From Nemertoderma westbladi (Eukaryota > Animalia > Xenacoelomorpha): 64,000 nucleotides of DNA. The notes under the pieces were generated by a model. The model searched no databases. It was not told the DNA's origin and worked only from the letters and a program-made list of their open reading frames with translations. Shown here in pieces: positions 24,001 through 63,233 of the stretch. Position numbers and translations under genes: made by a program. Position 1 is the stretch's first letter. The number at the start of each line of letters is the position of its first letter. The stretch is from NCBI GenBank assembly GCA_032718475.1, contig JAUCBJ010001989.1, positions 1-64,000 on the forward strand. Reading direction: 5' to 3'.

Positions 24001-25774
24001 CAGCCAATAAACATAAACTTACACAAAATCGACAGTTCCAGGCAACAAATAGGACTTCCACAAATTATCCGACGGTTCCAGGCAACATATAGAACTTACA
24101 CAAAATATCCGACAGTTCCAGGCAATAAACATAAACTTACACAAAATCGACAGTTACAGGCAACAAATAGAACTTACACAAAATATCCGACAGTCCAGAC
24201 AAAAAAACAGAACTTACACAAAATATCCCACAGTTCCAGGCAACAAATAGAACTTACACAAAATATCCGACAGTTCCAGCCAACAATAAGAACTTGCACA
24301 AAATATCCGACAGTTCCAGCCAACAATAAGAACTTACACAAAATATCCGACAGTCCCAGCCAACAATAAGAACTTACACAAAATATCCGACAGTTCCAGC
24401 CAACAAATAGAACTTACACAAAATATCCGACAGTCCAGACAAAAAAAACAGAACTTACACAAAATATCCGACAGTTCCAGCCAACAAATAGAACTTACAC
24501 AAAATATCCGACAGTTCCAACCAACAAATAGAACTTACACAAAATATCCGACAGTTCCAGCCAACAATAAGAACTTACACAAAATATCCGACAGTCCCAG
24601 CCAACAATAAGAACTTACACAAAATATCCGACAGTTCCAGCCAACAATAAGAACTTACACAAAATATCCGACAGTTCCAGCCAACAATAAGAACTTACAC
24701 AAAATATCAGACAGTTCCAGCCAACAAATAGAACTTACACAAAATATCCGACAGTCCCAGCCAACAAATAGAACTTACACAAAATATCCGACAGTCCCAG
24801 CCAACAATAAGAACTTACACAAAATATCCGACAGTCCCAGCCAACAATAAGAACTTACACAAAATATCCGACAGTCCCAGCCAACAAATAGAACTTACAC
24901 AAAATATCCGACAGTCCCAGCCAACAATAAGAACTTACACAAAATATCCGACAGTTCCAGCCAACGATAAGTACTTACACAAAATATCCGACAGTTCCAG
25001 CCAACAATAAGAACTTACACAAAATATCCGACAGTCCCAGGCAACAATAAGAAGTTACACAAAATATCCGACAGTTCCAGCCAACAAATAGAACTTACAC
25101 AAAATATCCGACAGTCCAGACAAAAAACAGAACTTACACAAAATATCCGACAGTTCCAGCCAACAAATAGAACTTACACAAAATATCCGACAGTTCCAAC
25201 CAACAAATAGAACTTACACAAAATATCCGACAGTTCCAGCCAACAATAAGAACTTACACAAAATATCCGACAGTCCCAGCCAACAATAAGAACTTACACA
25301 AAATATCCGACAGTTCCAGCCAACAAATAGAACTTACACAAAATATCCGACAGTCCAGACAAAAAAACAGAACTTACACAAAATATCCGACAGTTCCAGC
25401 CAACAAATAGAACTTACACAAAATATCCGACAGTTCCAGGCAACAAATAGTACTTACACAAAATATCCGACAGTCCCAGCAAACAAATAGAACTTACACA
25501 AAATATCCGACAGTTCCAGGCAACAAATAGAACTTACACAAAATATCCGACAGTTCCAGGCAACAAATAGTACTTACACAAAATATCCGACAGTCCCAGC
25601 AAACAAATAGAACTTACACAAAATATCCGACAGTTCCAGGCAACAAATAGGACTTACACAAAATATCCGACAGTCCCAGCCAACAAATAGGACTTACACA
25701 AAATATCCGACAGTTCCAGCAAACAAATAGAACTTACACAAAATATCCGACAGTCCCAGCTAACAACCGACAGT
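1..25774. repeat. 40-bp tandem satellite array (consensus CAGAACTTACACAAAATATCCGACAGTTCCAGCCAACAAA), about 635 units, running off the left edge of the window
   Basis: The 40-bp period is directly visible. Units are contiguous with point variants (e.g. ATGGGAC, CAGGCAAC, CATAAAA, AATAG) and occasional 39-, 41- or 30-bp units. The + strand is strongly A/C-rich. The array ends at ...CCGACAGT 25774. Confidence 0.99.
19873..20187. mobile_element. Foldback/MITE-like insert in the satellite: 123-bp inverted arms (19912-20034 / 20065-20187) around a 30-bp spacer, plus 39 unpaired bp on the left
   Basis: The arms are reverse complements with one mismatch (20011/20088). The insert is flanked by a 14-bp direct repeat AATTTATACAAAAT (19859-19872 and 20188-20201), which is itself satellite sequence. 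Confidence 0.8.
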
Positions 25775-25878
25775 ATTTGTCTCGGTCCGTAATCTTCCGA
25801 TAATCAATAATTGTGGCTTCAGCAGTAAATATATTGCGGAAATTAATTCGTAACAAAGCAATCTTTGAATCGATCAAA
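25734..25878 (-). CDS. Giant cadherin-like gene, exon 18 in window (C-terminal part of 7th MAD-like domain); 3' boundary ambiguous, abuts the satellite
   Basis: Strong acceptor TTTAATTTCTTCTGTTTTATAG, phase 2, matching the previous exon. Translates SLIDSKIALLRINFRNIFTAEATIIDYRKITDRDKYC. Candidate donors lie after 25768, 25765 or 25738 (GTAAGT); otherwise TAA at 25736-25734. Confidence 0.75.
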
Positions 25879-26908: not shown

Positions 26909-27079
26909 CTCTTTATTTGAGCATCAGAAATGAGTGAATATTGATCGTTATTATTTACAATGAATATGGCGATAGTCAATGTGGAAGACACCGGTGTGGC
27001 ATATTGGCATTCAAATATTCGAGTTTCTATACGTTCCACATTCACAATGTATTCTGTACCGAAAGCCAATTCCAAAGTC
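26909..27079 (-). CDS. Giant cadherin-like gene, exon 17 (MAD-like domain)
   Basis: Acceptor TTTTCTATTCCTAG, donor AG|GTTTGC, phase 2-2. Translates TLELAFGTEYIVNVERIETRIFECQYATPVSSTLTIAIF. Confidence 0.8.
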
Positions 27080-27214: not shown

Positions 27215-27491
27215 CTTTCTATTTCGAATCGTTTTTGGTAGGAATCAATAGGAGCGATGTTGGTATGTATTAGTATACTGGTACTATCTCCACTAAGACC
27301 AACCACAACCTGGGCGGGTTCACTTTCTTTGCCCGTATCATCAGTGGCCACTGCTTCTATGACATATACTGCACCCTCGTCACTGCTTTGGAACGCTTTC
27401 ACATTTCTTATCAACCCAGTTTCATACATAATTTCAAATGGTGCTGTATTTGGGTTGTTTAGAGTGTAGAATATATTATTTGCTCGGGGCA
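27215..27491 (-). CDS. Giant cadherin-like gene, exon 16 (cadherin domain end plus MAD start)
   Basis: Acceptor TTTTATCTTCTTAG, donor AG|GTATGT, phase 1-2. ETGLIRNVKAF...VATDDTGKESEPAQVVVGL...HTNIAP resembles the PCDH15 EC11-MAD12 junction (recalled pattern VIATDDYGKG..ADVLVSVVN...SNVPP). Confidence 0.88.
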
Positions 27492-28696: not shown

Positions 28697-28858
28697 CCAA
28701 CAAATCAGAATCAACCGCTGATAAACGGATTACGCTGCTGTAGGCTGGCGACATTATCTGCATGGAACCAACGTAGGGAATATTTTCAGCTGGAAATACT
28801 GGCGGTGCGTCATCCACATTGGTAACTATGACAACCAATTGAGCGACATCGCGTACCA
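28697..28858 (-). CDS. Giant cadherin-like gene, exon 15 (cadherin linker; not in the supplied ORF track)
   Basis: Acceptor TTTTATTCCCATCAG, donor G|GTGAGT, phase 1-1. Translates VVRDVAQLVVIVTNVDDAPPVFP...LSAVDSD, with DxxDxxPxF and AxDxD cadherin motifs. Confidence 0.9.
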
Positions 28859-29567: not shown

Positions 29568-29779
29568 CTGCACCGTCCCGCAGTGCGATAGATAATGAAT
29601 ATTCTTTCCCACTTTCATAATCTAAAGACTTTTTGAGAACAACTTGGTTATTGTCTATATGGAATATATTGAAAGGGTTTCCATTGGATATCTCGTAGAC
29701 GGACCCGGTAGGTGGGTCGGGTAGTTTATCGCCGATCGGTTTGTCAGTGCTAACAGACTCGGGTACGTGAATCATTCCT
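29568..29779 (-). CDS. Giant cadherin-like gene, exon 14 (cadherin domain)
   Basis: Acceptor CATTTTGCAG, donor CAG|GTAATA, phase 2-1. Motifs VPES, YEISNGNP..FHID, LDYE. Confidence 0.9.
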
Positions 29780-32039: not shown

Positions 32040-32267
32040 AGGAATATTATTCCATTGGTGTCTTGTGATACACAAGGTTGGTTCACTGCATCCTTGAACA
32101 ATGTAATATCGAGTGGTTGTTTGCCAATAACCTTTTCCATACTCTGCACGATATCATCTTTCCAACCCGGCACGTTTTCTTCAGTCGATGTGAAATGATC
32201 CACCAAATTGGTCACCAAGTCGCATGATGTGGCTGTGCAGCTCACCCCGTGCATCAAAATCATTACC
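32040..32267 (-). CDS. Giant cadherin-like gene, exon 13 (MAD-like C-terminal half plus linker)
   Basis: Acceptor CATTTTTTGAAG, donor CT|GTTAGT, phase 2-2, consistent with both neighbouring exons. Lies within ORF 31991-32263. Confidence 0.72.
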
Positions 32268-32433: not shown

Positions 32434-32618
32434 CTGGATGGATCTGGTATGTTGCATTCCGTATCGTAAACTGGAAGTATTCGATCTATGGACATTGATG
32501 TGAGCGCGAAATTAGTCTGAAGTATTTCTTCCAGGGCAGTTTGATGGTTCATTACATCAGTTGGTGTAGCTCCGGACAATTGAAATTGAACTCTGTCAGC
32601 TTCAGTAACGACTAAAAT
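32434..32618 (-). CDS. Giant cadherin-like gene, exon 12 (MAD-like N-terminal half; not in the ORF track)
   Basis: Acceptor TTTTCTTTTTTGCATAG, donor AG|GTAGTG, phase 0-2. Translates ILVVTEADRVQFQLSGATPTDVMNHQTALEEILQTNF...VYDTECN. Confidence 0.85.
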
Positions 32619-33148: not shown

Positions 33149-33155
33149 TACTTAC

Positions 33156-33347
33156 CCAAACTTTTGCGGTGTCCACCTTCTCTGCCTTTTCGTAAAGATC
33201 CACATCAAAATTATACGATTTTCCTGAATTATTTTCCATAGAGGTTATTAGATATATATTTCCATTGACAGGATTCAAACTAAAGGAACTGGATAAAGAT
33301 GAACCATCAGCTAATTTGTAGGAAACATCGATAGTTGGAGTTGTCAC
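33156..33347 (-). CDS. Giant cadherin-like gene, exon 11 (cadherin domain)
   Basis: Acceptor TTTTTTATGTAG, donor TGG|GTAAGT, phase 0-0. Translates VSYKL...FSLNPVNGNIYL. Confidence 0.88.
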
Positions 33348-37295: not shown

Positions 37296-37423
37296 CTGAA
37301 CACTGGCAATATTTGTATAAGCAGGTGTATCACTAGATATTCCAAATATGTAGGGGTATAGGGACTTCTCAAAGTTTGGTGAGTCCTTTACAAGTACAAC
37401 CGTTGCAATTGTCCTGGAAAGAC
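37296..37423 (-). CDS. Giant cadherin-like gene, exon 10 (cadherin linker; not in the ORF track)
   Basis: Acceptor TTTTATATTTTAG, donor CAG|GTAAGA, phase 1-0. Translates GLSRTIATVVLVKDSPNFEKSLYPYIFGISSDTPAYTNIASVQ. Confidence 0.88.
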
Positions 37424-38681: not shown

Positions 38682-38890
38682 CTGTATTGGTATCCAAGAT
38701 AAAATTCAAAACATGATTCGATGCGACATCGTAATCCAATGATTTAATCAAGGAAATCTTTCCATTGTTATCGACATTGAATGTGTCGCTTGTAGGGTCT
38801 ATATGGTAACCTTCTATAGACGGGTTGGTTGGTAGTTGACCTATCACAGTTCCCGGGGACTCATTCTCTTTAACCGTTATCTCTGGAGAC
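38682..38890 (-). CDS. Giant cadherin-like gene, exon 9 (cadherin domain)
   Basis: Acceptor CTACATTTCAAG, donor CAG|GTATGT, phase 2-1. Translates VKENESPGTVIG...FNVDNNGKISLIKSLDYD. Confidence 0.9.
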
Positions 38891-39462: not shown

Positions 39463-39564
39463 CAATTAACGGTGTGTCCATATCCGAGATCGCAAACTGT
39501 AGGCAGGGCGAAATTGAGAAAGTGTTTATCTTCTGGTAGAACCCGGTCTATTTCCACAGATATA
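39463..39564 (-). CDS. Giant cadherin-like gene, exon 8 (MAD end/linker)
   Basis: Acceptor TTTCTGTGTTACAG, donor TG|GTAAGT, phase 2-2, open frame. Confidence 0.78.
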
Positions 39565-39955: not shown

Positions 39956-40165
39956 CTTTCGCTAAATGGTAATAATCTTGATTGGATCTGTTGACCGGCT
40001 AGTATTACGGACTTGGTATCCTCCCTAGCATAAGCTACCACAGAAATGGTTGAAGTAGTGGGGTCATATTCGCACTGATCGGTTATGCCGGGAGTAATAG
40101 AAACACCCATCACGTTGACATGCAGCAAAGGTGGACTGCTCTTCTCTAAATAATATCTCAATATC
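39956..40165 (-). CDS. Giant cadherin-like gene, exon 7 (MAD-like domain)
   Basis: Acceptor TTTTAATTTTACCAG, donor AG|GTAGTG, phase 2-2. Translates ILRYYLEK...TDQCEYDPTTSTISVVAYA. Confidence 0.82.
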
Positions 40166-40454: not shown

Positions 40455-40591
40455 TCAGTTATAAATGACGAACTGCCATGTAGTAGTGCAGCTGATATGT
40501 CAGTCGTAACAGCTAACCGACTATCTCTATTATATCCACAGATACTCAATTCATCATGGTTAGGGGTTGTTACGCCATCACTAACGTCAAC
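40455..40591 (-). CDS. Giant cadherin-like gene, exon 6 (cadherin end plus MAD start; not in the ORF track)
   Basis: Acceptor TTTCACATTCTAG, donor GA|GTTAGT, phase 0-2. Translates VDVSDGVTTPNHDELSICGYNRDSRLAVTTD. Confidence 0.8.
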
Positions 40592-41705: not shown

Positions 41706-41852
41706 CCCACATACAATGCATGTGGGCTGTAGAAAAGGTGGTGTGTAAACCTCACCAGTTGTCGGATTTATTGAACTAGAGTCGCAACTATGGTCGTTAG
41801 TAGGACTGTAGAGAGAATATGTTAAACTGCTGATGTCATCTTTGTCAGTAGC
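41706..41852 (-). CDS. Giant cadherin-like gene, exon 5 (cadherin domain; not in the ORF track)
   Basis: Acceptor TTTCCGAATACAG, donor GGG|GTAAG, phase 0-0. Translates ATDKDDISSLTYSL...SINPTTGEVYT. Confidence 0.9.
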
Positions 41853-45422: not shown

Positions 45423-45691
45423 CTGGAGAAAGTTGAAATTTGTTAAACGGCAAGTATGCTTAGACTATAAAATTTTCATCATCATATGCTCAAAATATAG
45501 CATGAAAACCAACATAATGCAGCAAAGGTCTGAAAGAAAATATTTCTATACTAATATAGATAGCAGGGCTGCTGATACAGCTAAAACTAATTGTAAATGT
45601 TATATATAAAGTAAGTAGTATGTAACAACATTACTACTGATGGTCAATTAATAATGTAATTTATTTTTCATTAAATTACTAAATAACTTAC

Positions 45692-48600
45692 CATGGTAAA
45701 AATGGGAAGTATCCATAGAAACGAAAACATTCCTTCCTATCCACTCATTTAAATCTAGCAGCAAGATGTCAAAAACCCTTGATGGCACCTCAATTTGTGA
45801 ATTAATTGTTGAGAGCTTGCAGCACTTGAGGGGTAAATTCGTTGTATAAGGAGTTGGAATAGGTATTGTTATAGTAGCAGTACAACTTGTTGCACTATAT
45901 GTAGTTGGACAGGATACCGGTGAAGTTATGGTTGTTGATTCAAAACAGTCAAAATTTATATATACTGATCCATAACTGTGGCAGTTATTATTGGTAAATT
46001 TCAGTTGCAAATAATATTCTTTAGTATTAAAACAGTCCATTTCTTCCAACACAATTATTTTGTTGTCTTTTATAGCAAAATAATTGTTCTTTGAATCTTG
46101 GGTTATAAGATAAACTGAAGGCAGTTCTCCATTAAAAAATGTTGAAATGTCGAATAATGGGGTTGTTGGAGATGTATTTTCTGGAATAGATAATTCAGCT
46201 TGGAATGACGGAATATCACAGCATGGCCTAGGAAGTTTTGTTGCACAAGGAGTTGGAGTAGGTGTGGTTGCAGTAATAGGACATGAAGTTGCTTTATATG
46301 TAGTTGGGCATGATACTGGTGTAGTTATAGTTGATATATCCATGCAGTCTATATTTATATTTACTGACCCATAACTGTTGCAGTTATTATTGGTAAATTT
46401 AAGTTGTAAATAAAACTCATTCATATCAGAACAGTCAAGTTCTTTAATCAAAACTATTAAATACTCATTTAGAGCAATATAATTGTTCTTTGGATCCACA
46501 TATATAAGATTAACTGAAGGAACTTTTCCTTGAAAAACAGTCGATATGTCCAATAATGATGCTGTTGGAAATGAATTATCTGGAATTGATAATTCAGCGT
46601 GAAGTGATGGAATATCACAGCAGTGCCTGGGAAGTTTTGTTGACCAAGGAGTTGGTGTAGGTGTGGTTATAGTAGCAGGGCATGATGTTGCCTTATATGT
46701 AGTTGGACAATATACAGGAGTAGTTGTAGTTGTTGACTCGATGCAGTCTACAATAATATTTACTGATCCAAAGCTGTTGCAGTTATTGTTAGAGAATTTA
46801 ATTTGCAAATAAAACTCTTTAGTCTCGAAACAATCAAGTTCTTTCATCAAAACTAGTAAATACTGATTTAGAGTGAAATAATTGTTCTTTGAATCCATAT
46901 TTATGAGATTAGCTAAAGGCGCTTCCCCTTGAAAGGCATTTGATATGTCCAATAATGATATTGATGGAGAAGCATTGTCTGGAATAGATATTTCAGCATG
47001 GAATGACGGAATATCACAGCATGGGTGGGGAAGTTTTGTAGTATATTGAGTTGGAGTGGGTGTGGTTGCAGTAATAGGACATGAAGTTGCTCTATATGTA
47101 GTTGGACATGATACAGGAGTAGTTATAGTTGATACTTCAATACAGTCTATATTTATATTCACTGACCCATATCTGTTGCAGTTATTATTGGTAAATTTAA
47201 ATTGTAAATAAAACTCTTTCGCATCGAAACAGTCAAGTTCTTTCATCAACACAATTAAATTCTGATTTAGAGCGAAATAATTATTCTTTGGATCCATATT
47301 TATGAGACTAGCTGAAGGTACTTTCCCTTGAAAGACAGTTGATATGTCCAATAATGATATTGATGGAGATGCATTGTCAGGAATAGATATTTCAGCATGG
47401 AATGATGCAATATCACAGCATGGCCGAGGAAGTTTTGTTGCACAAGGAGTTGGAGTATGTGTGGTTGCAGTAATAGGACATGAAGTTGCTCTATATGAAG
47501 TTGGGCATGATACAGGAGTAGTTATAGTTGATATTTCAATGCAGTCTAGAATTATATTCACTGAACCATAACTGTTGCAGTTATTATTGGTAAATTTAAG
47601 TTGTAAATAAAACTCTTTTGCATCAAAACAGTCAAGTTCTTTCATCAACACAATTAAATACTGATTTAGAGCAAAGTAATTGTTCTTTGAATCTTGGGTT
47701 ATGATATAAACTGAAGGCAGTTCTCCATTAAAAAATGTTGAAATGTCGAATAATTGGGATGTTGGAGATGTATTTTCTGGAATAGATAATTCAGCTTGGA
47801 ATGACGGAATATCACAGCATGGCCTAGGAAGTTTTGTTACACAAGGAGATGGATTAGGTATGGTCGCCGAAATTGGACATGAAGTTGCTCTATAAGTAGT
47901 TGGACATGATACAGGAGTAGATACAGTTGATACTTCAATACAGTCTATATTTATATTTACTGAACCATAACTGTTGCATTTATTATTGGTAAATTTAAAT
48001 TGTAAATAAAACTCTTTCGCATCGAAACAGTCAAGTTCTTTCATCAACACAATTAAATTCTGATTTAGAGCGAAATAATTATTCTTTGGATCTATATTTA
48101 TGAGACTAGCTGAATGCACTTTCCCTTGAAAGAGAGTTGATATGTCCAATAATGATATTGATGGAGATGCATTGTCTGGAATAGATATTTCTGCATGGAA
48201 TGACGGAATATCACAGCATAGGTGGGGAAGTTTTGTAGTATATAGAGTTGGAGTAGGTGTGGTTTCAGTAATTGGACATGAAGTTGCTCTATATGAAGTT
48301 GGGCATGATACAGGAGTAGTTATAGTTGATATTTCAATGCAGTCTAGAATTATATTCACTGAACCATAACTGTTGCAGTTATTATTGGTAAATTTAAGTT
48401 GTAAATAAAACTCTTTTGCATCAAAACAGTCAAGTTCTTTCATCAACACAATTAAATACTGATTTAGAGCAAAGTAATTGTTCTTTGAATCTTGGGTTAT
48501 GATATAAGCTGAAGGCAGTTCTCCTTTAAAAAATGTTGAAATGTCGAATAATTGGGATGTTGGAGATGTATTTTCTGGAATAGATAATTCAGCTTGGAAT

Positions 48601-51600
48601 GACGGAATATCACAGCATGGCCTAGGAAGTTTTGTTACACAAGGAGATGGATTAGGTATGGTCACCGAAATTGGACATGAAGTTGCTCTATAAGTAGTTG
48701 GACATGATACAGGAGTAGATACAGTTGATACTTCAATACAGTCTATATTTATATTTACTGAACCATAACTGTTGCATTTATTATTTGTAAATTTCAGCTG
48801 TAAATAAAACTCTTTCGCATCAAAACAATCAAGTTCTTTCATCAAAACAATTAAATACTGATTTAGAGCGAAATAATTATTCTTTGGATCCATATTTATG
48901 AGACTAGCTGAAGGCACTTTCCCTTGAAAGAGAGGTGATATGTCCAATAATGATATTGATGGAGATGCATTGTCTGGAATAGATATTTCAGCATGGAATG
49001 ACGGAATATCACAGCATAGGTGGGGAAGTTTTGTAGTATATAGAGTTGGAGAAGGTGTGGTTTCAGTAATTGGACATGAAGATGCTCTATATGTAGTTGG
49101 GCATGATACAGGAGTAGATACAGTTGATACTTCAATACAGTCTATATTTATATTCACTGACCCATATCTGTTGCAGTTTTTATTGGTAAATTTTATTTGT
49201 AAATAAAACTCTTTCGCATTAAAACAGTCAAGTTCTTTAATCAAAACAATTAAATAATTATCATTTAGAACAAAATAATTGTTCTTTGGATCTTGGTTTA
49301 AGAGATTAACTAAAGGAAATTTCCCTTGAAAGACTGTTGATATATCAAATAATGGTATTGATGGAGATGTATTGTCTGGAATAGATAATTCAGCATGGAG
49401 CGAAGGAAGATCACAGCATGGCTGGGGAAATTTTGTTGTATATGGAGTTAGTGTTGGTGTGGTTGCAGTTATTGGGCAAGAAATTGCTCTATATGTGGTT
49501 GGACAAGATACTGGTAGTGAGGATACGGGAATATTTTCACATTTAATATTAATCTTCACTGATCCATAGCCCCTACAGTTTAAATTTTCAAAAGATAGTT
49601 GAAGATACATGTCTTCTATATCGTTACATTCGAGTTGATTTACAATCATTAGTCTGTATGAATCTATTAGAAAGTATTCATTTTTTGGATCTCTGTTCCA
49701 GATCTTTATCGTGGTATTCGAGCCTTGAAAATACTTCGCAAAGTTATAAATAAGTGATGGTACACGAACAATCTGACCATAAATTGATAGTTCAGCATTG
49801 ATTGTTGGTATTATGCAGCACTTTCCTGGAAGTTTTGTTGTACAAGGAGTTGGAGTAGGTGTGGTTGCAGTAATAGGACATGAAGTTGCTCTATATGTAG
49901 TTGGACATGATACAGGAGTAGTTATAGTTGATATTTCCATGCAGTCTATTATTATATTCACTGATCCATAACTGTTGCAGTCATTAGAGCTAAATTTAAG
50001 TTGTAAGTAAAACTCTTTCATATCAGAACAGGCAAGTTCTTTCATCAAAACAATTACATGCTCATTAAGAGCAAAATAATTGTTCTTTGGATCCACGTAT
50101 ATAAGATAAACTGAAGGAACTCTTCCTTGAAAGACAGTAGATATGTCCAATAATGATGCTGTTGGAGATGAGTTATCTGGAATAGATAATTCAGCGTGAA
50201 GTGATGGAATTTCACAGCATGGCCTGGGAAGTTTTGTTGCACAAGGAGTTGGTGTAGGTGTGGTTATAGTAGCAGGGCATGATGTTGCCTTATATGTAGT
50301 TGGACAATATACAGGAGTAGTTGTAGTTGTTGACTCGATGCAGTCTACAATAATATTTACTGATCCAAAGCTGTTGCAGTTATTGTTAGAAAATTTAAGT
50401 TGCAAATAAAACTCTTTGGTCTCAAAACAGTTAAGATTTTTTACCAAAACAATCATGTAGTCTTTTAGAGAAAAATAAATGTTCTGAGGCTCTGTGATTA
50501 AGAGATAAACTGAAGGCAGGTTTCCTTGAAGAGCTGCTGATATGTCAAATAATTGCGCTGCCGGATTTGTATTTTCTGAAATAGAGATTTCAGCACTGAA
50601 AGAGGGAAGGTCACAGCAGCTTATTGGCAAATTTGTTGGACATGGAGTTGGGGGAAGCATTGTAGGCAAAACCTCAGATGCAGGACAAATCAATGGACAG
50701 ATAGGTCGCAGCAGCACTTCAGAAATAGATATTGGAAATCGATCAGGTTCTAGAATATTACTACTTTTTAGTGCATCTTCAAGTTGAATACTGGTAGCAA
50801 GCTTCTGGTTTGATTTATCAATTGCAGTCAAAATAATTGCATTTGTAGACAACAATGCATTACAATCTTTGTCATAATGTTGCTTTATTGCATATATAGC
50901 TGTTTGATATGAATTAGTAATTTCAGCATTTATTGCTTCTAAAAATCCATTCTCATTAGATGCAATTTCATCTCTACCTTCATTTGTAAGCAATATTAAT
51001 TGGTATTCTTCATTTGTTACACACATATCAATCATAACAGTATTGCTTTCTGAAGTTCCAATATCTGTTGCTTTGGTTTCACATTGGAAGCATTCACCTT
51101 TTAGTGTTGTAATATAATCGGAGGTTCGCAGTATGCCAGAAGTTTTATCAATAGCAAATAATGAACATTCAGTTGAGCTTTGTAGACTATATTCTGTTTT
51201 TCCATTGCCAACTATATCAACATCACTTGTAGTTAGTGCCGCTATAAAACTATATGGAGGTAGACAAGCATCAAAAGTAAATTGATAAAGGCCCTCAAAT
51301 TGTGGTGGATTATCATTTGTATCCAGAATGCTAATGTCAATAACAGCTATAGATATGCATAATTCACCAATTAGATTTATTTTAATTGTATGCCTATTCT
51401 TAATTTCATAATCAGAACCTTTTATATCAATAGCTTTATTGCGAACTACAAAGTTATCAAAATCATTTCCACCATCAACTTTTTCAATTGTAATACTTTG
51501 CAAAGAAGCCAAGTTATCAAAATCATGAACTTCAACAAATTGTGAATTTTCAGTTACTTCTGCAGTTTCATATAACCCATGGCACCAGTCTGGAAGAGGA

Positions 51601-54600
51601 GATGAACACTTACTGAAACATTTTACTGCATCATGATGGTCGATGTAATTCAATCCAATGTCAAGCAGTTCTTTAGTTGTATCAGTCAGATCACTGCTTA
51701 GTATTGTATATATCTGTTTGGAGGTCATCAGTACATACTTATCACTGGAAGTAAAATCACCTAAACGTACTGCAGTAAATTCAATAGTGCTTTCACCAGC
51801 TTTGGGGTTACAACTTTGGTCATAACGTAGAGCTACATTTCTAATCATAATGTTGCGAAATGATTCTAAACTTAATGTACGTGAAAGTATTTGTTTTACT
51901 TCAGATATCGAATTTTCAACATCTTTTAGTGGATTATTGAAATGCACACCAGCCACATTTGCATCAGTATGAATACAAAGATTAGCATTGGTATTTTTTG
52001 TGTGACCATTGGCATCCACAACCTGTGGTGAGCATAATTTGCATATACCAATGTCAGTTGAATCAGCCTCACTATCCATACGAACCATACCTGTACTCCC
52101 ATGGACAGAAAATGGTAAACAATTTGGTAAACTGTAAGTGAGAGTATCTTTAGGATCAACATCTTGGGCAACAAGTTTAACAACATCAGTTCCCAATTTG
52201 TCACATTTATTAGCAACACCAAAAAATGTATTCTCAGTAAACCGCGGAAATTCATCGTTTATATTTCTCACAATTACAGTCACTGTAGCAAAACGTATAC
52301 AATGCTGTAACAACACTTTAACACTAAGAACGTATTGAATTTCACCTGTATCAAAGTCAAGTGGAGTAAGTGTTACAATTTTATTTGGATTTTCTACACC
52401 AAATAAACCTTGTATGTCCCCTTTAACAATTTCAATTTCAGTTACACCTTCTACATTTATAATTCCAACTTCAGTATCAGCACTATTTTCTACTACATTG
52501 AATGTTTCATAAATAGCATCTGAAAAGATACATGATAACATTGGAGTTGTAGTAGGGCACAGTACTGGCTCAGCTGTTGTCATTAATTCATAATAATTTA
52601 TATTTATATTCACTGACCCATAACTGTTGCAGTTGTTGTTGGTGAATTTAAGTTGCAAATAAAACTCTTTAGTATCATAGTAGTCGAGTTCTTTGTTCAA
52701 AAATATTATATAGTCCTTTACAGCAAAATAATTGCTCTTTGGATCTGGGTTTATGAGAAAAACTGAAGGCAGTTTTCCTTTAAAGGCTGTTGATATGTCC
52801 AATAATGATGTTGCTGGAACTGTGTTGTCTGGAATAGATAATTCAGCATGGAGTGAAGGAATATCACAGCATGGCCTAGGAAGTTTTGTTGTACAAGGAG
52901 TTAGAGTAGGTGTGGTTGCAGTAATAGGACATGAAGTTGCTCTATATGTAGTTGGGCATGATACTGGTGTAGTTATAGTTGAAATTCCAATACAGTCTAT
53001 ATTTATATTTACTGAACCATAACTGTTGCAATTATTAATGGTAAATTTCAGTTGTAAATAAAACTCTTTCACATCAAAACAATCATGTTCTTTAATCAAA
53101 ACTATTAAATTCTCATTTAGAGCAAAATAATTGTTCTTTGTATCAGGGTTTATCAGATTAATTAAAGGCATTTTCCCTTGAAAGGAAGTTGATATGTCCA
53201 ATAATGATATTGATGGAGATGTATTGTCTGGAATAGATATTTCAGCATGGAGTGAAGGAATATCACAGCATGGCCTAGGAAGTTTTGTTGCACAAGGGGT
53301 TGGAGTAGGTATGGTTGCAGTAATGGGACATGAGGTTGCTCTATAGGTAGTTGGGCATGAAACTGGTGTAGTTATAGATGATATATCAGTACAGTCTATA
53401 ATGATATTCACTGACCCATAACTGTTGCAGTTATTATTGGTAAGTTTCAGTTGTAAATAAAACTCTTTTATATCAGAACAGTCAAGTTCTTTAATCAAAA
53501 CTATTAAATACTCGTTTAGAGCAAAATAATTGTTCTTTGTATCAGGGTTTATGAGATTAATTAAAGGCATTTTCCCTTGAAAGGAAGTTGATATGTCCAA
53601 TAATGATATTGATGGAGATGTATTGTCTGGAATAGATAATTCAGCATGGAGTGAAGGAATATCACAGCATGGCCTAGGAAGTTTTGTTGCACAAGGGGTT
53701 GGAGTAGGTATGGTTGCAGTAATGGGACATGAGGTTGCTCTATATGTAGTTGGGCATGATACTGGTAGTGATGATATGGGAATATTTTCACATTTAATAT
53801 TAATCTTCACTGATCCATAGCCCCTACAGTTTAAATTTTCAAAAGATATTTGAAGATATATGTCTGTGATATGATTACATTCTAGTTGATTAACAATCAT
53901 TAGTCGGTATGAATCCATTAGAAAATATTCATTTTTTGGATCTCTGTTCCAGATCTTTATCGTGGTATTCGAGCCGTGAAAATACTTAGCAAAGTTATAA
54001 ATAAGTGATGGTACACGAACAATCTGACCATAAATTGATAGTTCAGCATTGATTGTTGGTATTATGCAGCACTTTCCTGGAAGTTTTGTTGTACAAGGAG
54101 TTGGAGTAGGTGTGGTTGCAGTAATAGGACATGAAGTTGCTCTATATGTAGTTGGACATGATACAGGAGTAGTTATAGTTGATATTTCAATGCAGTCTAC
54201 ATTTATATTCACTGACCCATAACTGTTGCAGTTATTATTGGTAAATTTCAGGTGTAAATAAAACTCTTTCATATCAGAACAATCAAGTTCTTTCATCAAA
54301 ACAATTAGATACTCATTAAGAGCAAAATATTTGTTCTTTGGATCTTTACTTACAATATTAACTAAAAGTAATTTCGCTTGAAAGACTGTTGATATGTCAA
54401 ATAATGGTATTGATGGAGATGTATTGGCTGGAATAGATAATTCAGCATGAAGTGAAGGGATATCACAGCATGGCTGGGGAAGTTTTGTTGCACAAGGAGT
54501 TGGAGTAGGTGTGGTTGCAGTAATAGGACATGAAGTTGCTCTATATGTAGTTGGACATGATACAGGAGTAGTTATAGTTGATATTTCAATGCAGTCTACA

Positions 54601-57600
54601 TTTATATTGACTGACCCATAACTGTTGCAGTTATTATTGGTAAATTTCAGTTGTAAATAAAACTCTGTAGCATCAAAACAGTTAACTTCTTTCATCAAAA
54701 CAATTGAATACCCGTTTAGAGCAAAATAATTGTTCTTCAGATCTGGATTTATGAGATTAACTAAAGGCACTTTCCCTTTAAAGATAGTTGATATGTCCAA
54801 TAATGATTTTAATGGAGATGCATTGTCTGGAATAGACATTTCAGCATGGAATGACGGAATATCACAGCAAGGTTTCTTTGGAAGTTTGGTTGTACATGGA
54901 GTTGGTGTTGGTGTGGTTGAAGTTATTGGACAAGAAGATGCTCTATATGTGGTTGGACAAGATACTGGTAGTGAGGATACGGGAATATTTTCACATTTAA
55001 TATTAATCTTCACTGATCCATAGCCCCTACAGTTTAAATTTTCAAAAGATAGTTGAAGATACATGTCTATTATATCGTAACATTCGAGTTGATTAACAAT
55101 CATTAGTTGGTATGAATCCATTAGAAAGTAATCATTTTTTGGATCTCTGTTCCAGATCTTTATAGTTGTATGCGAGCCATGAAAATACTTAGCAAAGTTA
55201 TAAATAAGTGATGGTACTCTATCAATCTGACCATATATTGTCAATTCAGCATTGATTGTTGGTATTATGCAGCACTTTCCTGGAAGTTTTGTTGTACAAG
55301 GAGTTGGAGTGGGTGTGGTTGCAGTAATAGGACATGAAGTTGCTCTATATGTAGTTGGGCATGATACAGGTGTAGTTATAGTTGATATTTCGATGCAGTC
55401 TATATTTATATTCACTGAACCATAACTGTTGCAGTTATTATTGGTAAATTTCAGTTGTAAATATAACTCTTTCATAACAGAACAGTCAAGTTCTTTTATC
55501 AAAACAATTAAATACTCATTTAGAGCAATATAATTGTTCTTTGGATCTGGATTTATGAGATTAACTAGAGGAACTTTCTCTTCAAAGACAGTTGATAAGT
55601 CAAATAATGATGTTGCTGGAATTGTATTGTCTGGAATCGATAACTCAACATGGAGTGAAGGAATATCACAGCATGGCATAAGGGGTTTTGTTGCACAAGG
55701 AGTTGGAGTAGGTGTGGTTGCAGTAATAGGACATGAAGTTGCTCTATATGTAGTTGGGCATGATACAGGTGTAGTTATAGTTGATATTTCGATGCAGTCT
55801 ATATTTATATTCACTGAACCATAACTGTTGCAGTTATTATTGGTAAATTTCAGTTGTAAATATAACTCTTTCATAACAGAACAGTCAAGTTCTTTTATCA
55901 AAACAATTAAATACTCATTTAGAGCAATATAATTGTTCTTTGGATCTGGATTTATGAGATTAACTAGAGGAACTTTCTCTTCAAAGACAGTTGATAAGTC
56001 AAATAATGATGTTGCTGGAATTGTATTGTCTGGAATCGATAACTCAACATGGACTGAAGGAATATCACAGCATGGCATAAGGGGTTTTGTTGCACAAGGA
56101 GTTGGAGTAGGTGTAGTTGCAGTAATAGGACATGAAGTTGCTCTATATGTAGTTGGGCATGATACTGGTGTAGTTATAGTTGATATTTCAATGCAGTCAA
56201 TTTTTATATTCACTGACCCATAACTGTTGCAGTTATTATTGGTAAATTTCAGTTGTAAATAAAACTCTGTAGCATCAAAACAGTTAACTTCTTTCATCAA
56301 AACAATAAGATACTCATTTAGAGCAAAATAATTGTTCTTTGGATCAGGGTTTATGAGATTAACTAGAGGAACTTTTCCTTGAAAGACTGTTGATATATCT
56401 AATAATGGTATTGATGGAGATGTATTGTCTGGAATAGATAATTCAGCGTGGATTGATGGAATATCACAGCAAGGCTTTGGAAGTTTGGTTGTAAAAGGAG
56501 TTGGTGTTGGTGTGGTTGAAGTTATTGGACAAGAAGATGCTTTATATGTGGTTGGACAAGATACTGGTAGTGAGGATACAGGAATATTTTCACATTTAAT
56601 ATTAATCTTAATTGCTCCATAGCCCCTACAGTTTAAATTTCCAAAAGATATTTGAAGATACATGTCTGTTATATCATTACATTCGAGATGTTTAACAATC
56701 ATTAGTCGGTATGAATCCATTAGAAAGTATTCATTTTTTGGATCTCTGTTCCATATCTTTATGGTGGTATCCGATCCAGAAAAATATTTAGCAAAATTGT
56801 ACAATAATGAGGGTACACGTTCAATCATACCATTGATTGTCAATTCAGCATTGAGAGTTGGAATTGCACAGCACTTTATTGGAAGATTAGTTGTACACGG
56901 AGTTGGTGTCGGTATGGTTGCAGTGGCAGGACAAGATGTTGCTCTATATGTAGTTGGACAGGATACAGGAGTAGTTAGAGTTGTTGCCACAACACAGTCT
57001 GTAATTACATTTACTGACCCATAACTGTTGCAGTTATTGTTGAAGAATTTAAGTTCCAAATATAATTCTTTATTATGAAAACAATCAAGTTCTTTAATCA
57101 AAACTATTAAATAGTTATTTAGAGCAAAATAATTTTTCCTTGGATCAGGGTTTATGAGATAAACAGAAGGCAGCTTTCCAGTGAAAAATGTTGAAATGTC
57201 CAATAATGATGTTGCTGGAACTACATTGTCTGGAATAGATAATTCAGCATGGAGTGAAGGAATATCACAGCATGGCCTAGGAAGTTTTGTACTATATGGA
57301 GTTGGAGTAGGTGTGGTTGCAGCTATAGTACAAGGAGATGCTCTATATGATGTTGGACAAGATACTTCTGGCAAAGTTGCAGAAATTAGTTTACACTTAA
57401 TATTGATCTTTACTGATCCATAACCTATACAGTGGAAATTTGAAAATGAAAGTTGAAGATACATGTCTTCTATATCATTACATTCGAGTTGCTTAACAAT
57501 CATTAGTCTGTATAAATCTATTTGAAAATATTCATTTTTTGGATCTCTGTTCCATATCTTTATAGTGGTATCCGATTCAGGAAAATACTTAGCAAAGTTA

Positions 57601-60600
57601 TAAATAAGTGATGGAACACGAACAATCTGACCATAAATTGATAGTTCAGCATTGAGAGTTGGTATTATGCAGCAATTTCTTGGAAGTTTTGTTGTACATG
57701 GAGTTGGAGTTGGTATGGTTGCAGTAATAGGACATGAAGTTGCTTTATATGTAGTTGGACATGATACAGGAGTAGTTATAGTTGATATTTCAATGCAGTC
57801 TATATTTATATTTATGAACCCATAACTGTTGCAGTTATTGTTTGCAAATTTAAGCTGTAAATAAAATTCTTTTGTAACATAACAGTTAAGTTCTTTCATC
57901 AAAATAATTAAATACTCATTTAGAGCAAAATAATTGTTCTTTGGATCAGGATTTATGAGATTAACTAGAGGAACTTTTCCTTGAAAGACGGTTGATATGT
58001 CAAATAATGATATTGATGGAGATGTATTGTCTGGAATAGATAATTCAGCATGGAGTGAAGGAATATCACAGCATGGCCGGGGAAGTTTTGTTGCACAAGG
58101 GGTTGGAGTAGGTGTAGTTGCAGTAACAGGACATGAAGTTGCTCTATATGTAGTTGGGCAGGATACTGGTGTAGTTATAGTTGATATATCCATGCAGTCT
58201 ATATTTATATTCACTGAACCATAACTGTTGCAGTTATTATTGGTAAATTTCAGTTCCAAATAAAACTCTTTTATATCAGAACAGTCAAGTTCTTTTGTTA
58301 AAACAATTAAATACTCATTTAGAGCAAAATAAATGTTCTTGTGACCAGGATTTATGAGATTAATAAGGGGAACTTTTCCTTTAAAGACAGTTGATATGTC
58401 CAATAATGATATTGATGGAGATGTATTGTCTGGAATAGATAATTCAGCATGGAGTGAAGGAATATCACAGCATGGCCGAGGAAGTTTTGTTGTACAAGGA
58501 GTTGGAGTTGGTGTGGTTGCAGTAATAGGACATGAAGTTGCTCTATATGTGGTTGGACATGATATGGGAGTAGATACAGTTGATACTTCAATACAGTCTA
58601 TATTTATATTCACTGAACCATAACTGTTGCAGTTATTATTATTGGTAAATTTCAGTTGTAAATAAAACTCTTTCACATCAAAACAGTCAAGTTCTTTCAT
58701 CAAAATGATTAAATGCTGATTGAGAGCAAAATAATTATTTTTTGGATCAGGATTTATGATATTAACAAGAGGAACTTGACCATTAAAGATTGTTGATATG
58801 TCTAATAATGATATTGACAGAGATGTATTGTCTGGAATCGATAATTCAGCATGAAGCGAAGGAATATCACAGCATGGCCTAGGGAGTTTCGTTACGCAAG
58901 GAGTTGGAGTAGGTGTGGTTGCAGTAATAGGACATGAAGTTGCTCTATATGTGGTTGGACATGATATGGGAGTAGATACAGTTGATACTTCAATACAGTC
59001 TATATTTATATTCACTGAACCATAACTGTTGCAGTTATTATTATTGGTAAATTTCAGTTGTAAATAAAACTCTTTCACATCAAAACAGTCAAGTTCTTTC
59101 ATCAAAATGATTAAATGCTGATTGAGAGCAAAATAATTATTTTTTGGATCAGGATTTATGATATTAACAAGAGGAACTTGACCATTAAAGATTGTTGATA
59201 TGTCTAATAATGATATTGACAGAGATGTATTGTCTGGAATCGATAATTCAGCATGAAGCGAAGGAATATCACAGCATGGCCTAGGGAGTTTCGTTACGCA
59301 AGGAGTTGGAGTAGGTGTGGTTGCAGTAATAGGACATGAAGTTGCTCTATATGTAGTTGGACATGATACAGAAGTAGTTATAGTTGATATTTCCATGCAG
59401 TCTATATTTATATTCACTGAACCATAACTGTTGCAGTTGTTATTGGTAAATTTCAGTTCCAAATAAAACTCTTTTATATCAGAACAGTCAAGTTCTTTTG
59501 TTAAAACAATTAAATACTCATTTAGAGCAAAATAAATGTTCTTGGGACCAGGATTTATGAGATTAACTAGGGGAACTTCTCCTTTAAAGACAGTTGATAT
59601 GTCCAATAATGATATTGATGGAGATGTATTGTCTGGAATAGATAATTCAGCATGGAGTGAAGGAATATCACAGCATGGCTGGGGAAGTTTTGTTGCACAA
59701 GGAGTTGGAGTAGGTGTGGTTGCAGTAATAGGACATGAAGTTGCTCTATATGTGGTTGGACATGATATGGGAGTAGATACAGTTGATACTTCAATACAGT
59801 CTATATTTATATTTACTGACCCATAACTGTTGCAGTTATTATTATTGGTAAATTTAAGTTGTAAATAAAACTCTTTCACATCAAAACAGTCAAGTTCTTT
59901 TGTTAAAACAATTAAATACTCATTTAGAGCAAAATAAATGTTCTTGGGACCAGGATTTATGAGATTAACTAGGGGAACTTTTCCTTTAAAGACAGTTGAT
60001 ATGTCCAATAATGATATTGATGGAGATGTATTGTCTGGAATAGATAATTCAGCATAGAGTGAAGGAATATCACAGCATGGCTGGGGAAGTTTTGTTGCAC
60101 AAGGAGTTGGAGTAGGTGTGGTTGCAGTAATAGGACATGAAGTTGCTCTATATGTAGTTGGACATGATACTGGAGTAGTTGTAGTTGTTGACTCAATGCA
60201 GTCTACAATAATATTTACTGATCCAAAGCTGTAGCAGTTATTGTTAGAAAATTTAATTTGCAAATAAAACTCTTTGGTCTCAAAACAGTTAAGATTCTTC
60301 ACCAAAACTATCATGTAGTCTTTTAGAGTAAAATAAATAATTTTTGGCTCCGTGATTAAGAGATAAACTGAAGGCAGGTGTCCTTGAAGAGCTGCTGATA
60401 TGTCAAATAATTGCGCTGGTGGATTTGTATTTTCTGAAATAAAGATTTTAGCACTGAAAGAGGGAAGGTTACAGCAGCTAATTGGCAAATTTGTTGGACA
60501 TGGAGTTGGGGGAAGCATTGTAGGCAAAACCTCAAATGCAGGACAAATCAATGGACAGATAGGTCGCAGCAGCACTTCAGAAATAGATATTGGAAATCGA

Positions 60601-63233
60601 TCAGGTTCTAGAATATTACTACTTTTTAGTGCATCTTCAAGTTGATTACTAGTAGCAAGCTTCTGGTTTGATCTATCAATTGCAGTCAAAATAACTGCAT
60701 TGGTAGACAACAATGGATTACATTCGTTATCATAATGTTGCTTTATTGCATATATAGCTGTATTATATGAATTAGTAATTTCAGCATTTATAGCAGCTAA
60801 AAATTCACGCTCATTTGATGCAATTTCATCTCTACCTTCATTTGTAAGCAATATTAATTGGAATTCTTCATTTGTTACACACATATCAATCATAACCGTA
60901 TTGCTTTCTGAAGTTCCAATATCTGTAGCTTTGGCTTCACATTGGAAGCAATCGCCTTTTAGTGTTGTAATATAATCTGAGGTTCGCAATATGCCAGATG
61001 TTTTTTCAATAGCAAATAATGAACATTCAGTTGAGCTTTGTAGACTATATTCTGTTTTTCCATTGCCAACTTTATCAACATCACTTGTAGTTAGTGCTGC
61101 TATAAAACTATGTGGAGGTAAACAAGCATCAAAAATAAATTGATAAAGGCCTTCAAATTGTGGTGGATTATCATTTGTATCCAGAATGTTAATGTCAATA
61201 ATAGCTATAGATATGCATAATTCACCAATTAGATTTATTTTAATTGTATGCCTATTCTTAATTTCATAATCAGAACCTTTTATATCAATAGCTTTATTGC
61301 GAACTACAAAGTTATCAAAATCATTTCCACCATCAACTTTTTCAATTGTAATACTTTGCAAAGAAGCCAAGTTATCAAAATCATGCACTTCAACAAATTG
61401 TGTGTTTTCAGTTACTTCTGCAGTTTCATATAACCCATGGCACCAGTCTGGAAGTGGAGATGCACACAGAGTGGCGCATTTTGCTGCATCATGATGGTCG
61501 ATGTAATTCAAACCATTATCAAGGAGTTCTTTAGTTGTATCAGTCAGATCACTGCTTAGTATTGTATATATCTGTTTGGAGGACATCAGTACATACTTAT
61601 CACTGGAAGTAAAATCACCTAAACGTACTGCAGTAAATTCAACAGTGGTTTCACCAGCTTTGGGGTTACAACTTTGGTCATAACGTAAAGCTACATTTGT
61701 AATCATAATGTTGCGAAATGATTCTAAACTTAATGTACGCGAAAGTATTTGTTTTACTTCAGATATCGAATTTTCAACATCTTTTAGTGGATTATTGAAA
61801 TGCACACCAGCCACATTTGCATCAGTGTAAATACAAAGATTAGCATTTGTATTTTTTGTGTGACCATTGGCATCCACAACCTGTGGTGAGCATAATTTGC
61901 ATATACCAATGTCAGTTGAATCAGCCTCACTATCCATACGAACCATACCTGTACTCCCATGCACAGAAAATGGTAAACAATTTGGTAAACTGTAAGTAAG
62001 AGTATCTTTAGGATCAACATCTTGGGCAACAAGTTTAACAACATCAGTTCCCAATTTATCACATTTATTAGCAACACCAAAAAATGTATTCTCAGTAAAC
62101 CGAGGAAATTCATCGTTTATATTTGTCACCATTACAGTCACTGTAGCAAAACGTATACAATGCTGTAACAACACTTTAACACTAAGAACGTATTGAATTT
62201 CACCTGTATCAAAGTCAAGTGGAGAAAGTGTTACAATTTTATTTGGACTTTCTACACCAAATAAACCTTGTATGTCCCCTTTAACAATTTCAATTTCAGT
62301 TACACCTTCTATATTTATAATTCCAACTTCAGAATCAGCACTATTTTCTACTACATTGAATGTTTCATAAATAGCATCTGAAAAGATACATGATAACATT
62401 GGAGTTGTAGTAGGGCACTGTACTGGCTCAGCTGTTGTCATTATTTCATAATAATTTATATTTATATTCACTGACCCATAACTGTTGCAGTTGTTGTTGG
62501 TGAATTTAAGTTGCAAATAAAACTCTTTAGTATCATAGTAGTCAAGTTCTTTGTTCAAAAATATTATATAGTCCTCTACAGCAAAATAATTGCTCTTTGG
62601 ATCTGGGTTTATGAGAAAAACTGAAGGCAGTTTTCCTTGAAAGACTGTTGATATGTCCAATAATGATGTTGCTGGAACTGTGTTGTCTGGAATAGATAAT
62701 TCAGCATGGAGTGAAGGAATATCACAGCATGGCCTAGGAAGTTTTGTTGCACAAGGAGTTGGAGTAGGTGTGGTTGCAGTAATAGGACATGAAGTTGCTC
62801 TATATGTAGTTGGACAAGATACTGGCGCATGTGTTGTTGATATCATTATTTGACATGCAATGTTGATCAGCAGAGATCCATGCTGAAGGCAATTTCCTTT
62901 TTCAAATGAGAGTTGAAGATAAATTTCATTAACATTATGGCAATTAAGATCTCTTACAAGAACCAGTCTATTGAAATCTATTTCAAAGAAGTCGTTTTTA
63001 GGATCTCCATTACCTATATTTATAGTTACATCAGATTCCGATATATAGTCACCAAAATCCAAGATTGTAGATAGCGCATAACTGTCAGGCACATTCAGTT
63101 CAGAGTTCAGTGTAGTCATGCTGCAACAGTTGGGTGGTTGGGAGGTTGGGCATGGTGTAGGTCCAATCACGGTCTCTGGTGCTGTGATGCTCACTACCAA
63201 ATACCCACTTCTTATTGGGTCAACAGTCTCTGC
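45692..63233 (-). CDS. Giant cadherin-like gene, 17,542-bp internal exon: ~35 Cys/Thr/Pro-rich cadherin-like repeats plus 4 cadherin-cadherin-MAD modules
   Basis: Lies in the 5850-aa ORF. Acceptor AATTAATTTTAG|GCA at 63233 (phase 0), donor ATG|GTAAGT at 45692 (phase 1). Canonical cadherin motifs VVEN, LDFD, NINDEFPRF, AQDVD and DTNDNPPQF occur in two blocks. Confidence 0.95.
50312..62820 (-). repeat. Intragenic segmental duplication: ~2.65-kb blocks at ~50312-52962 and ~60170-62820 (offset 9858 bp, in frame)
   Basis: Paired ORF-track entries are offset by 9858 (50542/60400; 51926/61784). The DNA and protein are near-identical. Confidence 0.95.

What the first reader, a model, noticed from the sequence alone, without database searches (positions are those of the whole stretch)
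25734..63233. Giant cadherin built from seven tandem cadherin-cadherin-MAD (SEA-like) modules
Seen: 18 phase-consistent exons give about 6900 aa with the layout Rep x2 - (EC-EC-X) x2 - Rep x20 - (EC-EC-X) x2 - Rep x13 - (EC-EC-X) x3. X is a ~110-aa non-cadherin domain, e.g. MCVTNEEFQLILLTNEGRDEIASNEREFLAAIN...VILTAIDRSNQKLATSNQLEDAL. Established: PCDH15, CDH23 and related CDHR proteins have ONE ferredoxin/SEA-like membrane-adjacent domain (MAD12/PICA, MAD28) after their last EC repeat; in PCDH15 it helps cis-dimerisation and is mechanically weak. Inference: X is that domain, here repeated seven times and placed far from any membrane. I do not know this architecture. It could act as a multi-point dimerising or serial shock-absorbing filament.
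Basis: partly seen in the sequence, partly recalled or inferred. Interest (0 to 1): 0.9.

Follow-up and report, generated by a model that had tools for sequence, protein, structure and literature searches.

The report
Giant cadherin with seven SEA-like domains
An animal gene encodes at least 6,900 amino acids in which a two-cadherin unit capped by a predicted SEA-like domain, which the known cadherins checked here carry once, occurs seven times between 35 cysteine-rich, mucin-like cadherin repeats, likely making a long extracellular filament of a layout not found in the databases or papers searched.

Summary
The gene is real. Intron-free contigs from a public run match exons 1–16. A model of X2 (pLDDT 59.5) folds as βαββαβ. 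Its top five matches among 48,161 solved chains are all PCDH15 MAD12 (Z 8.2–6.7), then CDH23 MAD28 and the IA-2 SEA domain. The other six X (five distinct types in all) were not folded and rest on weak mutual homology. New here: 'Rep' is a calcium-free, cysteine-rich copy of the module's first cadherin repeat plus a Thr/Pro linker. Every X has a loop cysteine and an exit cysteine. Novelty is lower than claimed: Nematostella dystroglycan has six tandem Ig/cadherin-like + SEA modules, and FAT/CELSR MADs already lie far from the membrane. No close relative with this layout turned up. Both ends are unresolved: no start codon or signal peptide, no transmembrane helix, and the stop overlaps a donor-like site in a satellite. 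Dimerisation and shock absorption are untested. The scan's earlier notes held nothing on this. Verdict: new variant of a known kind.

The parts
45692..63233 (-). Exon 1, 17,542 nt, aa 1-5847: 34 Reps, the start of the 35th, and modules 1-4; begins at an AG acceptor, no ATG
   Evidence: 3' tail in an intron-free contig
62424..63161 (-). Rep x2
61476..62390 (-). Module 1, EC-EC-X1 (X1 61826-61476)
60558..61466 (-). Module 2, EC-EC-X2 (X2 60878-60558, the domain that was folded: MAD/SEA-like)
52569..60521 (-). Rep x20: about 133-aa units, a calcium-free cadherin-like domain plus a Thr/Pro/Cys linker
50700..52532 (-). Modules 3 and 4 (X3 51968-51618, X4 51020-50700), a recent duplicate of modules 1 and 2
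45175..50666 (-). Rep x13 (the last one split by intron 1)
45143..45422 (-). Exon 2
43852..44039 (-). Exon 3 (module 5, first EC)
   Evidence: contig arithmetic
43215..43435 (-). Exon 4 (module 5 EC-EC junction)
41706..41852 (-). Exon 5
40455..40591 (-). Exon 6 (start of X5)
39956..40165 (-). Exon 7 (core of X5)
39463..39564 (-). Exon 8 (end of X5)
38682..38890 (-). Exon 9 (module 6, first EC)
37296..37423 (-). Exon 10
33156..33347 (-). Exon 11 (module 6, second EC)
32434..32618 (-). Exon 12 (first half of X6)
32040..32267 (-). Exon 13 (second half of X6)
29568..29779 (-). Exon 14 (module 7, first EC)
28697..28858 (-). Exon 15
27215..27491 (-). Exon 16 (second EC of module 7, start of X7)
26909..27079 (-). 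Exon 17 (core of X7); not checked against RNA
25734..25878 (-). Exon 18 (end of X7); runs into the 40-bp satellite; stop codon or donor unresolved

Best explanation
This is a spliced animal gene whose product of at least 6,911 aa strings together seven units of two cadherin repeats plus a predicted MAD/SEA-like domain and 35 calcium-free, cysteine-rich cadherin-derived repeats with Thr/Pro linkers, and it likely works as a very long extracellular spacer or tether filament, a cadherin that behaves like a mucin. Shown: the frame, the layout, splicing of exons 1-16, and the cadherin nature of the EC pairs and of Rep. Predicted: the MAD fold, for X2 directly and for the others by homology. Inferred: in six of seven modules Ca2+ would stiffen the EC-EC junction. 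The MAD would tuck against the second EC as in PCDH15 and put a bend or joint in the chain. The Reps would be disulfide-stapled beads that need no calcium, held apart by O-glycosylated linkers, giving roughly 0.5-0.65 micrometre if extended. The conserved X cysteines would cross-link domains or chains. Whether it is secreted or membrane-anchored is open.
For: Frame and splicing. Purifying selection: 39 synonymous against 65 non-synonymous changes between the duplicated blocks, pN/pS 0.47; Rep pairs differ most at codon position 3. EC identity: Pfam Cadherin E 7e-9 for the first 1000 aa and 2.5e-8 for exon 14; first and second ECs against a FAT/DCHS/CDH23 profile, prob 98.4 and 98.5. DxNDxxP-type and DxD motifs occur in 6 of 7 modules. 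[quoted passage not shown] Foldseek ranks 1-11 are PCDH15 MAD12, CDH23 MAD28, ACE2 chains, Nup54 and a nuclear-pore chain. VIA over 48,161 chains gives PCDH15 residues 1223-1340 at Z 8.2, rmsd 4.0, 105 aligned, against 5.5 for the best unrelated fold. Leave-one-out profiles recover each of the 5 distinct X above shuffles: 0, 1, 3, 0 and 0 of 300. An X-only profile scores the CDH23 MAD and three FAT-like MADs above shuffles (3, 4, 5, 9 of 500), while five non-MAD segments stay at chance. The Atlas neighbours of EC4-X2 are FAT3, CELSR/DE-cadherin, CDH23, dystroglycan and PCDH15. Rep profile hits CDH23 EC at E 0.001 and the module's first EC at prob 95, but not the second EC. 0 of 35 Reps keep DxND, 33 of 35 have 7-9 Cys per unit, and linkers are 50-61% T/S/P.
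Against: Only one X was modelled, at moderate confidence from 7 rows. No Foldseek match reaches E 0.001 (best 0.03), and Z 7-8 is within what the tool says unrelated models can reach. Sequence evidence for MAD identity is weak. A FAT/CDH23 MAD profile lifts only X7 above shuffles (3 of 500; the other six 31-189 of 500), and the profile-profile probability is 3.4. There is no Pfam hit for X1 or X2, no PDB hit for the X profile, and the post-EC segment of a sponge giant cadherin scored at chance (237 of 500). No signal peptide is in the window, so export is inferred from the domains. No localisation, glycosylation or disulfide data exist. Contigs do not prove one transcript across the 17.5-kb exon.
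Confidence: 0.6

Rival explanations
1. Multi-point parallel dimer and serial shock absorber: each EC-MAD unit pairs in cis as PCDH15 EC11-MAD12 does, and unrolls under force.
For: The closest structure is PCDH15 MAD12, which induces parallel dimers and is predicted weak in simulations. Every X follows an EC, as MAD12 does.
Against: A MAD does not imply a dimer: in CELSR1 the EC-MAD orientation differs and the surface is hindered (PMC12038025). X is only 13-15% identical to MAD12. All 7 X carry a loop Cys and a second Cys 55-72 residues on, at the domain exit. If these pair, the beta4 unzipping described for MAD12 would be limited; the pairing is not shown.
Confidence: 0.25
2. A giant membrane-anchored ectodomain. 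The transcript splices at the donor-like site in the first satellite unit to further exons beyond the window that give a transmembrane helix, so that X7 is an ordinary juxtamembrane MAD and X1-6 are internal copies. This is compatible with the main reading.
For: The stop overlaps GT|GTAAGT, no AATAAA lies on the coding strand below 25734, and the satellite fills 1-25766 apart from one 280-bp foldback insert. A terminal MAD followed by a TM is the usual ending, as in CDH23 and apparently in a 6,174-aa Dysidea avara cadherin.
Against: No TM-like segment in the 6,911 aa: the best 19-residue hydropathy windows are EC strands. No candidate exon in the remaining 25.7 kb.
Confidence: 0.4
3. The SEA-like domains are cleavage points or force-gated proteolytic switches that cut the precursor into several subunits.
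For: Cadherin-like + SEA tandems of dystroglycan, PCDH15 and CDHR2 act as proteolytic switches in a Notch chimera assay (PMC6586460). One RxxR site precedes X5.
Against: None of the 7 X has a Gly-Ser in the beta2-beta3 loop; the only GS lies in the first helix region of X5.
Confidence: 0.15
4. Assembly or annotation artefact: an expanded repeat, or exons from separate genes.
For: Exon 1 is highly repetitive, with four exact repeats of 200-443 nt. No long read was seen.
Against: The Reps are diverged: 34 different rows of 35. pN/pS is below 1. Intron-free contigs link exon 1 to exon 16. At most the Rep count could be off by one or two.
Confidence: 0.06

Closest known systems
PCDH15 EC11-MAD12 and CDH23 EC27-MAD28 (also CDHR2 MAD10)
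   Same: An EC followed directly by a ferredoxin/SEA-like domain; best structural matches of X2, Z 8.2 and 5.7.
   Different: These have one MAD, next to a TM, after 9-27 ECs. Here there are seven, each after only two ECs, with further repeats behind them, 8-15% identity, and a conserved loop cysteine.
Dystroglycan IG2_MAT_NU tandems (2x in arthropods, hemichordate, placozoan; 6x in Nematostella; PMC4582122, PMC5216574)
   Same: Tandem repetition of a cadherin-like + SEA module in one chain, with mucin-like Ser/Thr regions; proposed there to lengthen and stiffen the ectodomain. That IG2_MAT_NU equals cadherin-like + SEA rests and on my recall.
   Different: One Ig/cadherin-like domain per module there, two true ECs with calcium-linker motifs here. 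No Gly-Ser site, no DAG1 Pfam hit, and no TM or dystrophin-binding tail in the window. The 35 Reps have no counterpart.
FAT1-4, CELSR1-3 (MAD33-35, MAD10/Flamingo box)
   Same: Giant cadherins with a MAD that is not next to the membrane. FATs are the commonest hits of the EC parts.
   Different: One MAD at the end of the EC run, then EGF/LamG. My FAT/CDH23 MAD profile found exactly one hit in each of the 32 of 86 fetched proteins that it hit at 8 bits or more. No EGF or LamG here.
CDHR5 (mucin-like protocadherin)
   Same: Cadherin repeats combined with a mucin-like region (PMC8691648).
   Different: 4 ECs and one mucin block there; here short Thr/Pro linkers alternate with 35 degenerate ECs.

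Membership tests
Cadherin superfamily | Two or more tandem EC repeats | tested here: met
   Pfam PF00028 hits; profile matches prob 98 for both EC positions
Cadherin superfamily | Calcium-binding linker motifs (xE, LDxE, DxNDxxP, DxD) | tested here: met
   DxNDxxP-type and DxD motifs in 6 of 7 EC pairs; absent in module 6 and in 35 of 35 Reps
Cadherin superfamily | Signal peptide, transmembrane helix and cytoplasmic tail | tested here: inconclusive
   None in the 6,911 aa, but both ends of the gene are open
MAD/SEA-like domain | [quoted passage not shown] | tested here: met
   Model pLDDT 59.5; top five VIA hits PCDH15 MAD12, Z 8.2-6.7
MAD/SEA-like domain | The same fold in X1/X3, X5, X6, X7 | tested here: inconclusive
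   Not folded; leave-one-out homology to the other X supports it; the MAD profile supports only X7
MAD/SEA-like domain | EC-MAD-induced parallel dimer as in PCDH15 | not tested
Autoproteolytic SEA (MUC1, dystroglycan type) | Gly-Ser cleavage motif in the beta2-beta3 loop (motif position recalled) | tested here: not met
   0 of 7 X have GS there
Dystroglycan | Single Ig/cadherin-like domain per SEA module and DAG1 profile match | tested here: not met
   Two ECs per module; no DAG1 hit in 28 Pfam scans of window pieces
Dystroglycan | TM and dystrophin-binding tail | tested here: inconclusive
   3' end unresolved
FAT/CELSR cadherins | Uninterrupted EC run, one MAD, then EGF/LamG domains | tested here: not met
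   ECs occur in pairs separated by X; no EGF/LamG hit in the pieces scanned

The most novel reading that the evidence does not exclude
The first true cadherin in which the MAD is a repeating building block inside the rod rather than a terminal domain. Seven EC-EC-MAD joints pair chains side by side and are locked by their loop cysteines, while 35 calcium-free, glycosylated cadherin beads act as spacers. The protein would then polymerise into a half-micrometre rope or a gel-forming 'cadherin mucin' of the extracellular matrix.
Probability: 0.3. Interest if true: 0.8.

Novelty: new variant of a known kind. Interest (0 to 1): 0.57.

Why it matters
The EC-MAD unit is central to hair-cell tip-link mechanics and to FAT and CELSR structure, but in the cadherins described it occurs once. 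A natural protein with seven copies of five distinct types offers a ready series for asking which EC-MAD features give dimerisation or mechanical weakness, and whether a disulfide can switch these off. It suggests that repeating a cadherin-like + SEA module, known from dystroglycans, also happened with true EC pairs. It also shows a traceable route from a calcium-binding EC to a calcium-free, cysteine-stapled, mucin-spaced repeat. Pfam recognises neither X nor Rep, so similar proteins in other genomes would be under-annotated.

Tried and rejected
No own genome is held, so flanks and paralogues could not be read, and the organism was not determined. Single-sequence folding of 759 aa gave pLDDT 32 and was discarded. 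No close relative appeared in metagenome contigs, among 343-1,094-aa proteins (22 generic cadherin hits), among 206-2,000-aa proteins with the X alignment (0 of 7,992 scored), or among 3,223-10,255-aa proteins (64 generic FAT/DCHS/CDH23-type hits). The X profile against 1.84 billion representatives gave 2 hits, both rejected as summed chance matches to a cohesin-repeat and a cystatin-repeat protein. The X profile found no domain at 8 bits or more in 86 fetched cadherins. The Atlas gave nothing for X2 alone, and the PDB sequence search gave nothing for the X profile. No RNA holder was listed by the run search; run X5 is labelled 'DNA?' but its contigs lack the introns. RNA support for exons 17-18 and the 3' end was not obtained. 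The non-satellite island at 19909-20190 was checked as a possible TM exon and rejected: it is a foldback element. Literature: nine searches listed no paper on a multi-MAD cadherin. Pei and Grishin 2017, the main survey of SEA domains in cadherins, is not held; it may bear on novelty. Passages of PMC5968619, PMC13245172 and PMC6526912 were read and did not bear on the question. No supplements were read. Three look-ups in the scan's notes gave one unrelated note.
Full report
Observation. The window is AT-rich eukaryotic DNA. Bases 1-25766 are a 40-bp satellite, and no assembly is held for it. On the minus strand, 63233-45651 is a stop-free frame of 5,861 codons. The other five frames hold 206-595 stops, and 50 shuffles reached at most 144 codons. 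Reading the sequence below it gave 17 more exons. All have AG acceptors and, apart from the last, GT donors; joined, they give 6,911 aa with one stop, at the end.

Expression. Four of six listed runs were laid on 26500-46499. Contigs of X1 and X3 follow the genomic sequence through introns; they may be the source sample. Two contigs of X5 lack the introns. Record 25 (1,887 nt) has part of exon 16 at 1-257 and exon 13 from 632, exactly the summed lengths of exons 16, 15 and 14, and its total length reaches the exon 7/6 boundary. Record 29 (1,280 nt) holds the exon 1 tail, exon 2 and exon 4, with room for exon 3. Only five pieces of these two records were listed, so the junctions in between rest on length arithmetic. 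The tool guesses X5 to be DNA, but intron-free contigs point to cDNA. Exons 17-18 and most of exon 1 were not tested. Selection agrees with a working gene: modules 1-2 and 3-4 are a 2,825-bp duplicate at 95.5%, with 39 synonymous and 65 non-synonymous changes, pN/pS 0.47.

Open ends. Exon 1 starts at an AG acceptor with no ATG, and 63234-64000 holds no signal-peptide exon, so the N-terminus lies outside the window. Exon 18 runs into the satellite, and its stop overlaps a GT|GTAAGT donor-like site that recurs 432 times in the array. The model has no transmembrane segment. The only non-satellite island below it is a foldback element. Secreted or anchored is therefore unresolved, and 'far from any membrane' is not established for X7.

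The EC pairs. Pfam Cadherin hits several of them. Profiles of the seven first and seven second ECs match a FAT/DCHS/CDH23 EC profile at probability 98.4 and 98.5. DxNDxxP-type and DxD motifs are present in 6 of 7 pairs; module 6 lacks them.

The X domain. X1/X3 are 95% and X2/X4 90% identical; other pairs are 12-27%. Leave-one-out profiles recover each of the five distinct types above shuffles (0, 1, 3, 0 and 0 of 300; boundaries set by eye). [quoted passage not shown] Foldseek found nothing at E 0.001, but ranks 1-11 were PCDH15 (6c10, 6eet, 6bxz), CDH23 EC25-MAD28 (8tri), ACE2 chains, Nup54 and a nuclear-pore chain, at E 0.03-0.18. VIA on Foldseek's top 1000 put PCDH15 MAD12 first, then ACE2 residues 608-726 (that this ACE2 part is SEA-like is my recall). 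VIA over 48,161 representatives gave five PCDH15 MAD12 entries first (Z 8.2, rmsd 4.0, 105 aligned, residues 1223-1340; down to 6.7), then CDH23 MAD28 and IA-2 (5.7 each), then HMG-CoA reductase (5.5). The tool warns that Z of 7-8 can be chance; the case rests on the top hit being the very domain expected after an EC. Against this, sequence evidence is thin. A FAT/CDH23 MAD profile lifts only X7 above shuffles (3 of 500; the others 31-189), and the profile-profile match has probability 3.4, E 0.013, though in register. Pfam, the PDB sequence search and the Atlas gave nothing for X alone. In the reverse test on 13 post-EC segments, the X profile lifted the CDH23 MAD and three FAT-like MADs (3, 4, 5, 9 of 500). 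It did so less for a fifth FAT MAD (35), not for two truncated ones (92, 100) or five non-MAD segments (135-379), and one segment gave no score. The post-EC segment of a Dysidea avara giant cadherin also stayed at chance. The Atlas neighbours of EC4-X2 were FAT3 (0.93), CELSR/DE-cadherin (0.91), CDH23, dystroglycan and PCDH15 (0.84). I put about 0.85 on X2/X4 being MAD/SEA-like and about 0.75 on all seven.

Rep. The 35 units of about 133 aa consist of a 95-aa domain and a linker that is 50-61% Thr/Ser/Pro. The domain profile hits CDH23 ECs (E 0.001), a general EC profile (prob 82) and the module's first EC (prob 95, E 2e-8), but not the second EC. None of the 35 keeps DxND, and 33 have 7-9 cysteines. 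Rep is therefore most likely an amplified, calcium-free derivative of the first EC. Disulfide stapling and O-glycosylation are inferred. All seven X carry a cysteine in the loop between the second and third strands and another 55-72 residues later; five also have one 53-59 residues before, at the end of the EC. None has a Gly-Ser in that loop.

Mechanism. The best reading is a long extracellular spacer or tether: calcium-stiffened EC pairs, MAD joints, and calcium-independent beads on glycosylated linkers, about 0.5-0.65 micrometre if extended (with recalled per-domain lengths). CELSR1 shows a MAD whose dimer surface is hindered (passages of PMC12038025), and the cysteine pair could limit unzipping. 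A proteolytic-switch role is a third option (passages of PMC6586460).

Comparison. MADs away from the membrane are known in FAT and CELSR. Tandem IG2_MAT_NU modules are known in dystroglycans, six in Nematostella (passages of PMC4582122 and PMC5216574). The idea of a chain of cadherin-like + SEA modules is thus not new. What I could not find is a protein with true EC pairs and several MADs, or anything like the Rep array. Homology searches returned only generic cadherins. My MAD profile found one domain in each of the 32 fetched proteins that it hit, though it would miss divergent MADs. Nine literature searches listed no such case. Pei and Grishin 2017 was not held (known to me only from recall and a reference list). 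The gene is a member of the cadherin superfamily. It is not a dystroglycan, FAT or CELSR by the features tested.

Verdict. Real, transcribed over at least exons 1-16, and undescribed as far as searched: a new variant of a known kind, interest 0.57.

Noticed in passing
window 1-25766: A 40-bp satellite array of at least 25 kb abuts the last exon. A perfect donor-like GT|GTAAGT recurs 432 times in it on the gene's strand.
   Followed up: partly
window 19909-20190: Foldback, MITE-like insert in the satellite: 126-nt arms, 98% complementary, 30-nt spacer.
   Followed up: partly
window 42019-43215, 27818-28584, 40898-41547, 37512-37945: Fragments of a high-copy LINE reverse transcriptase in four introns (RVT_1, DUF6451); one begins about 35 nt after the exon 4 donor.
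   Followed up: partly
window 32818-33148: 29-bp minisatellite, 11.4 copies at 99%, in intron 11.
   Followed up: no
window 45692-63233: A 17.5-kb single coding exon, while modules 5-7 are split over 17 small exons. The Reps form subfamilies, including five divergent ones with a longer first loop spaced through the arrays.
   Followed up: partly
P0089: A 6,174-aa Dysidea avara cadherin annotated Fat4-like has 56 ECs, one unannotated segment of about 130 aa that looks MAD-like by eye (profile support weak, 22 of 500), and a TM, with no EGF/LamG.
   Followed up: partly
P0023 and P0085: Unnamed giant cadherins with EC runs interrupted by 450-920-aa blocks of other repeated domains that my EC profile missed.
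   Followed up: no
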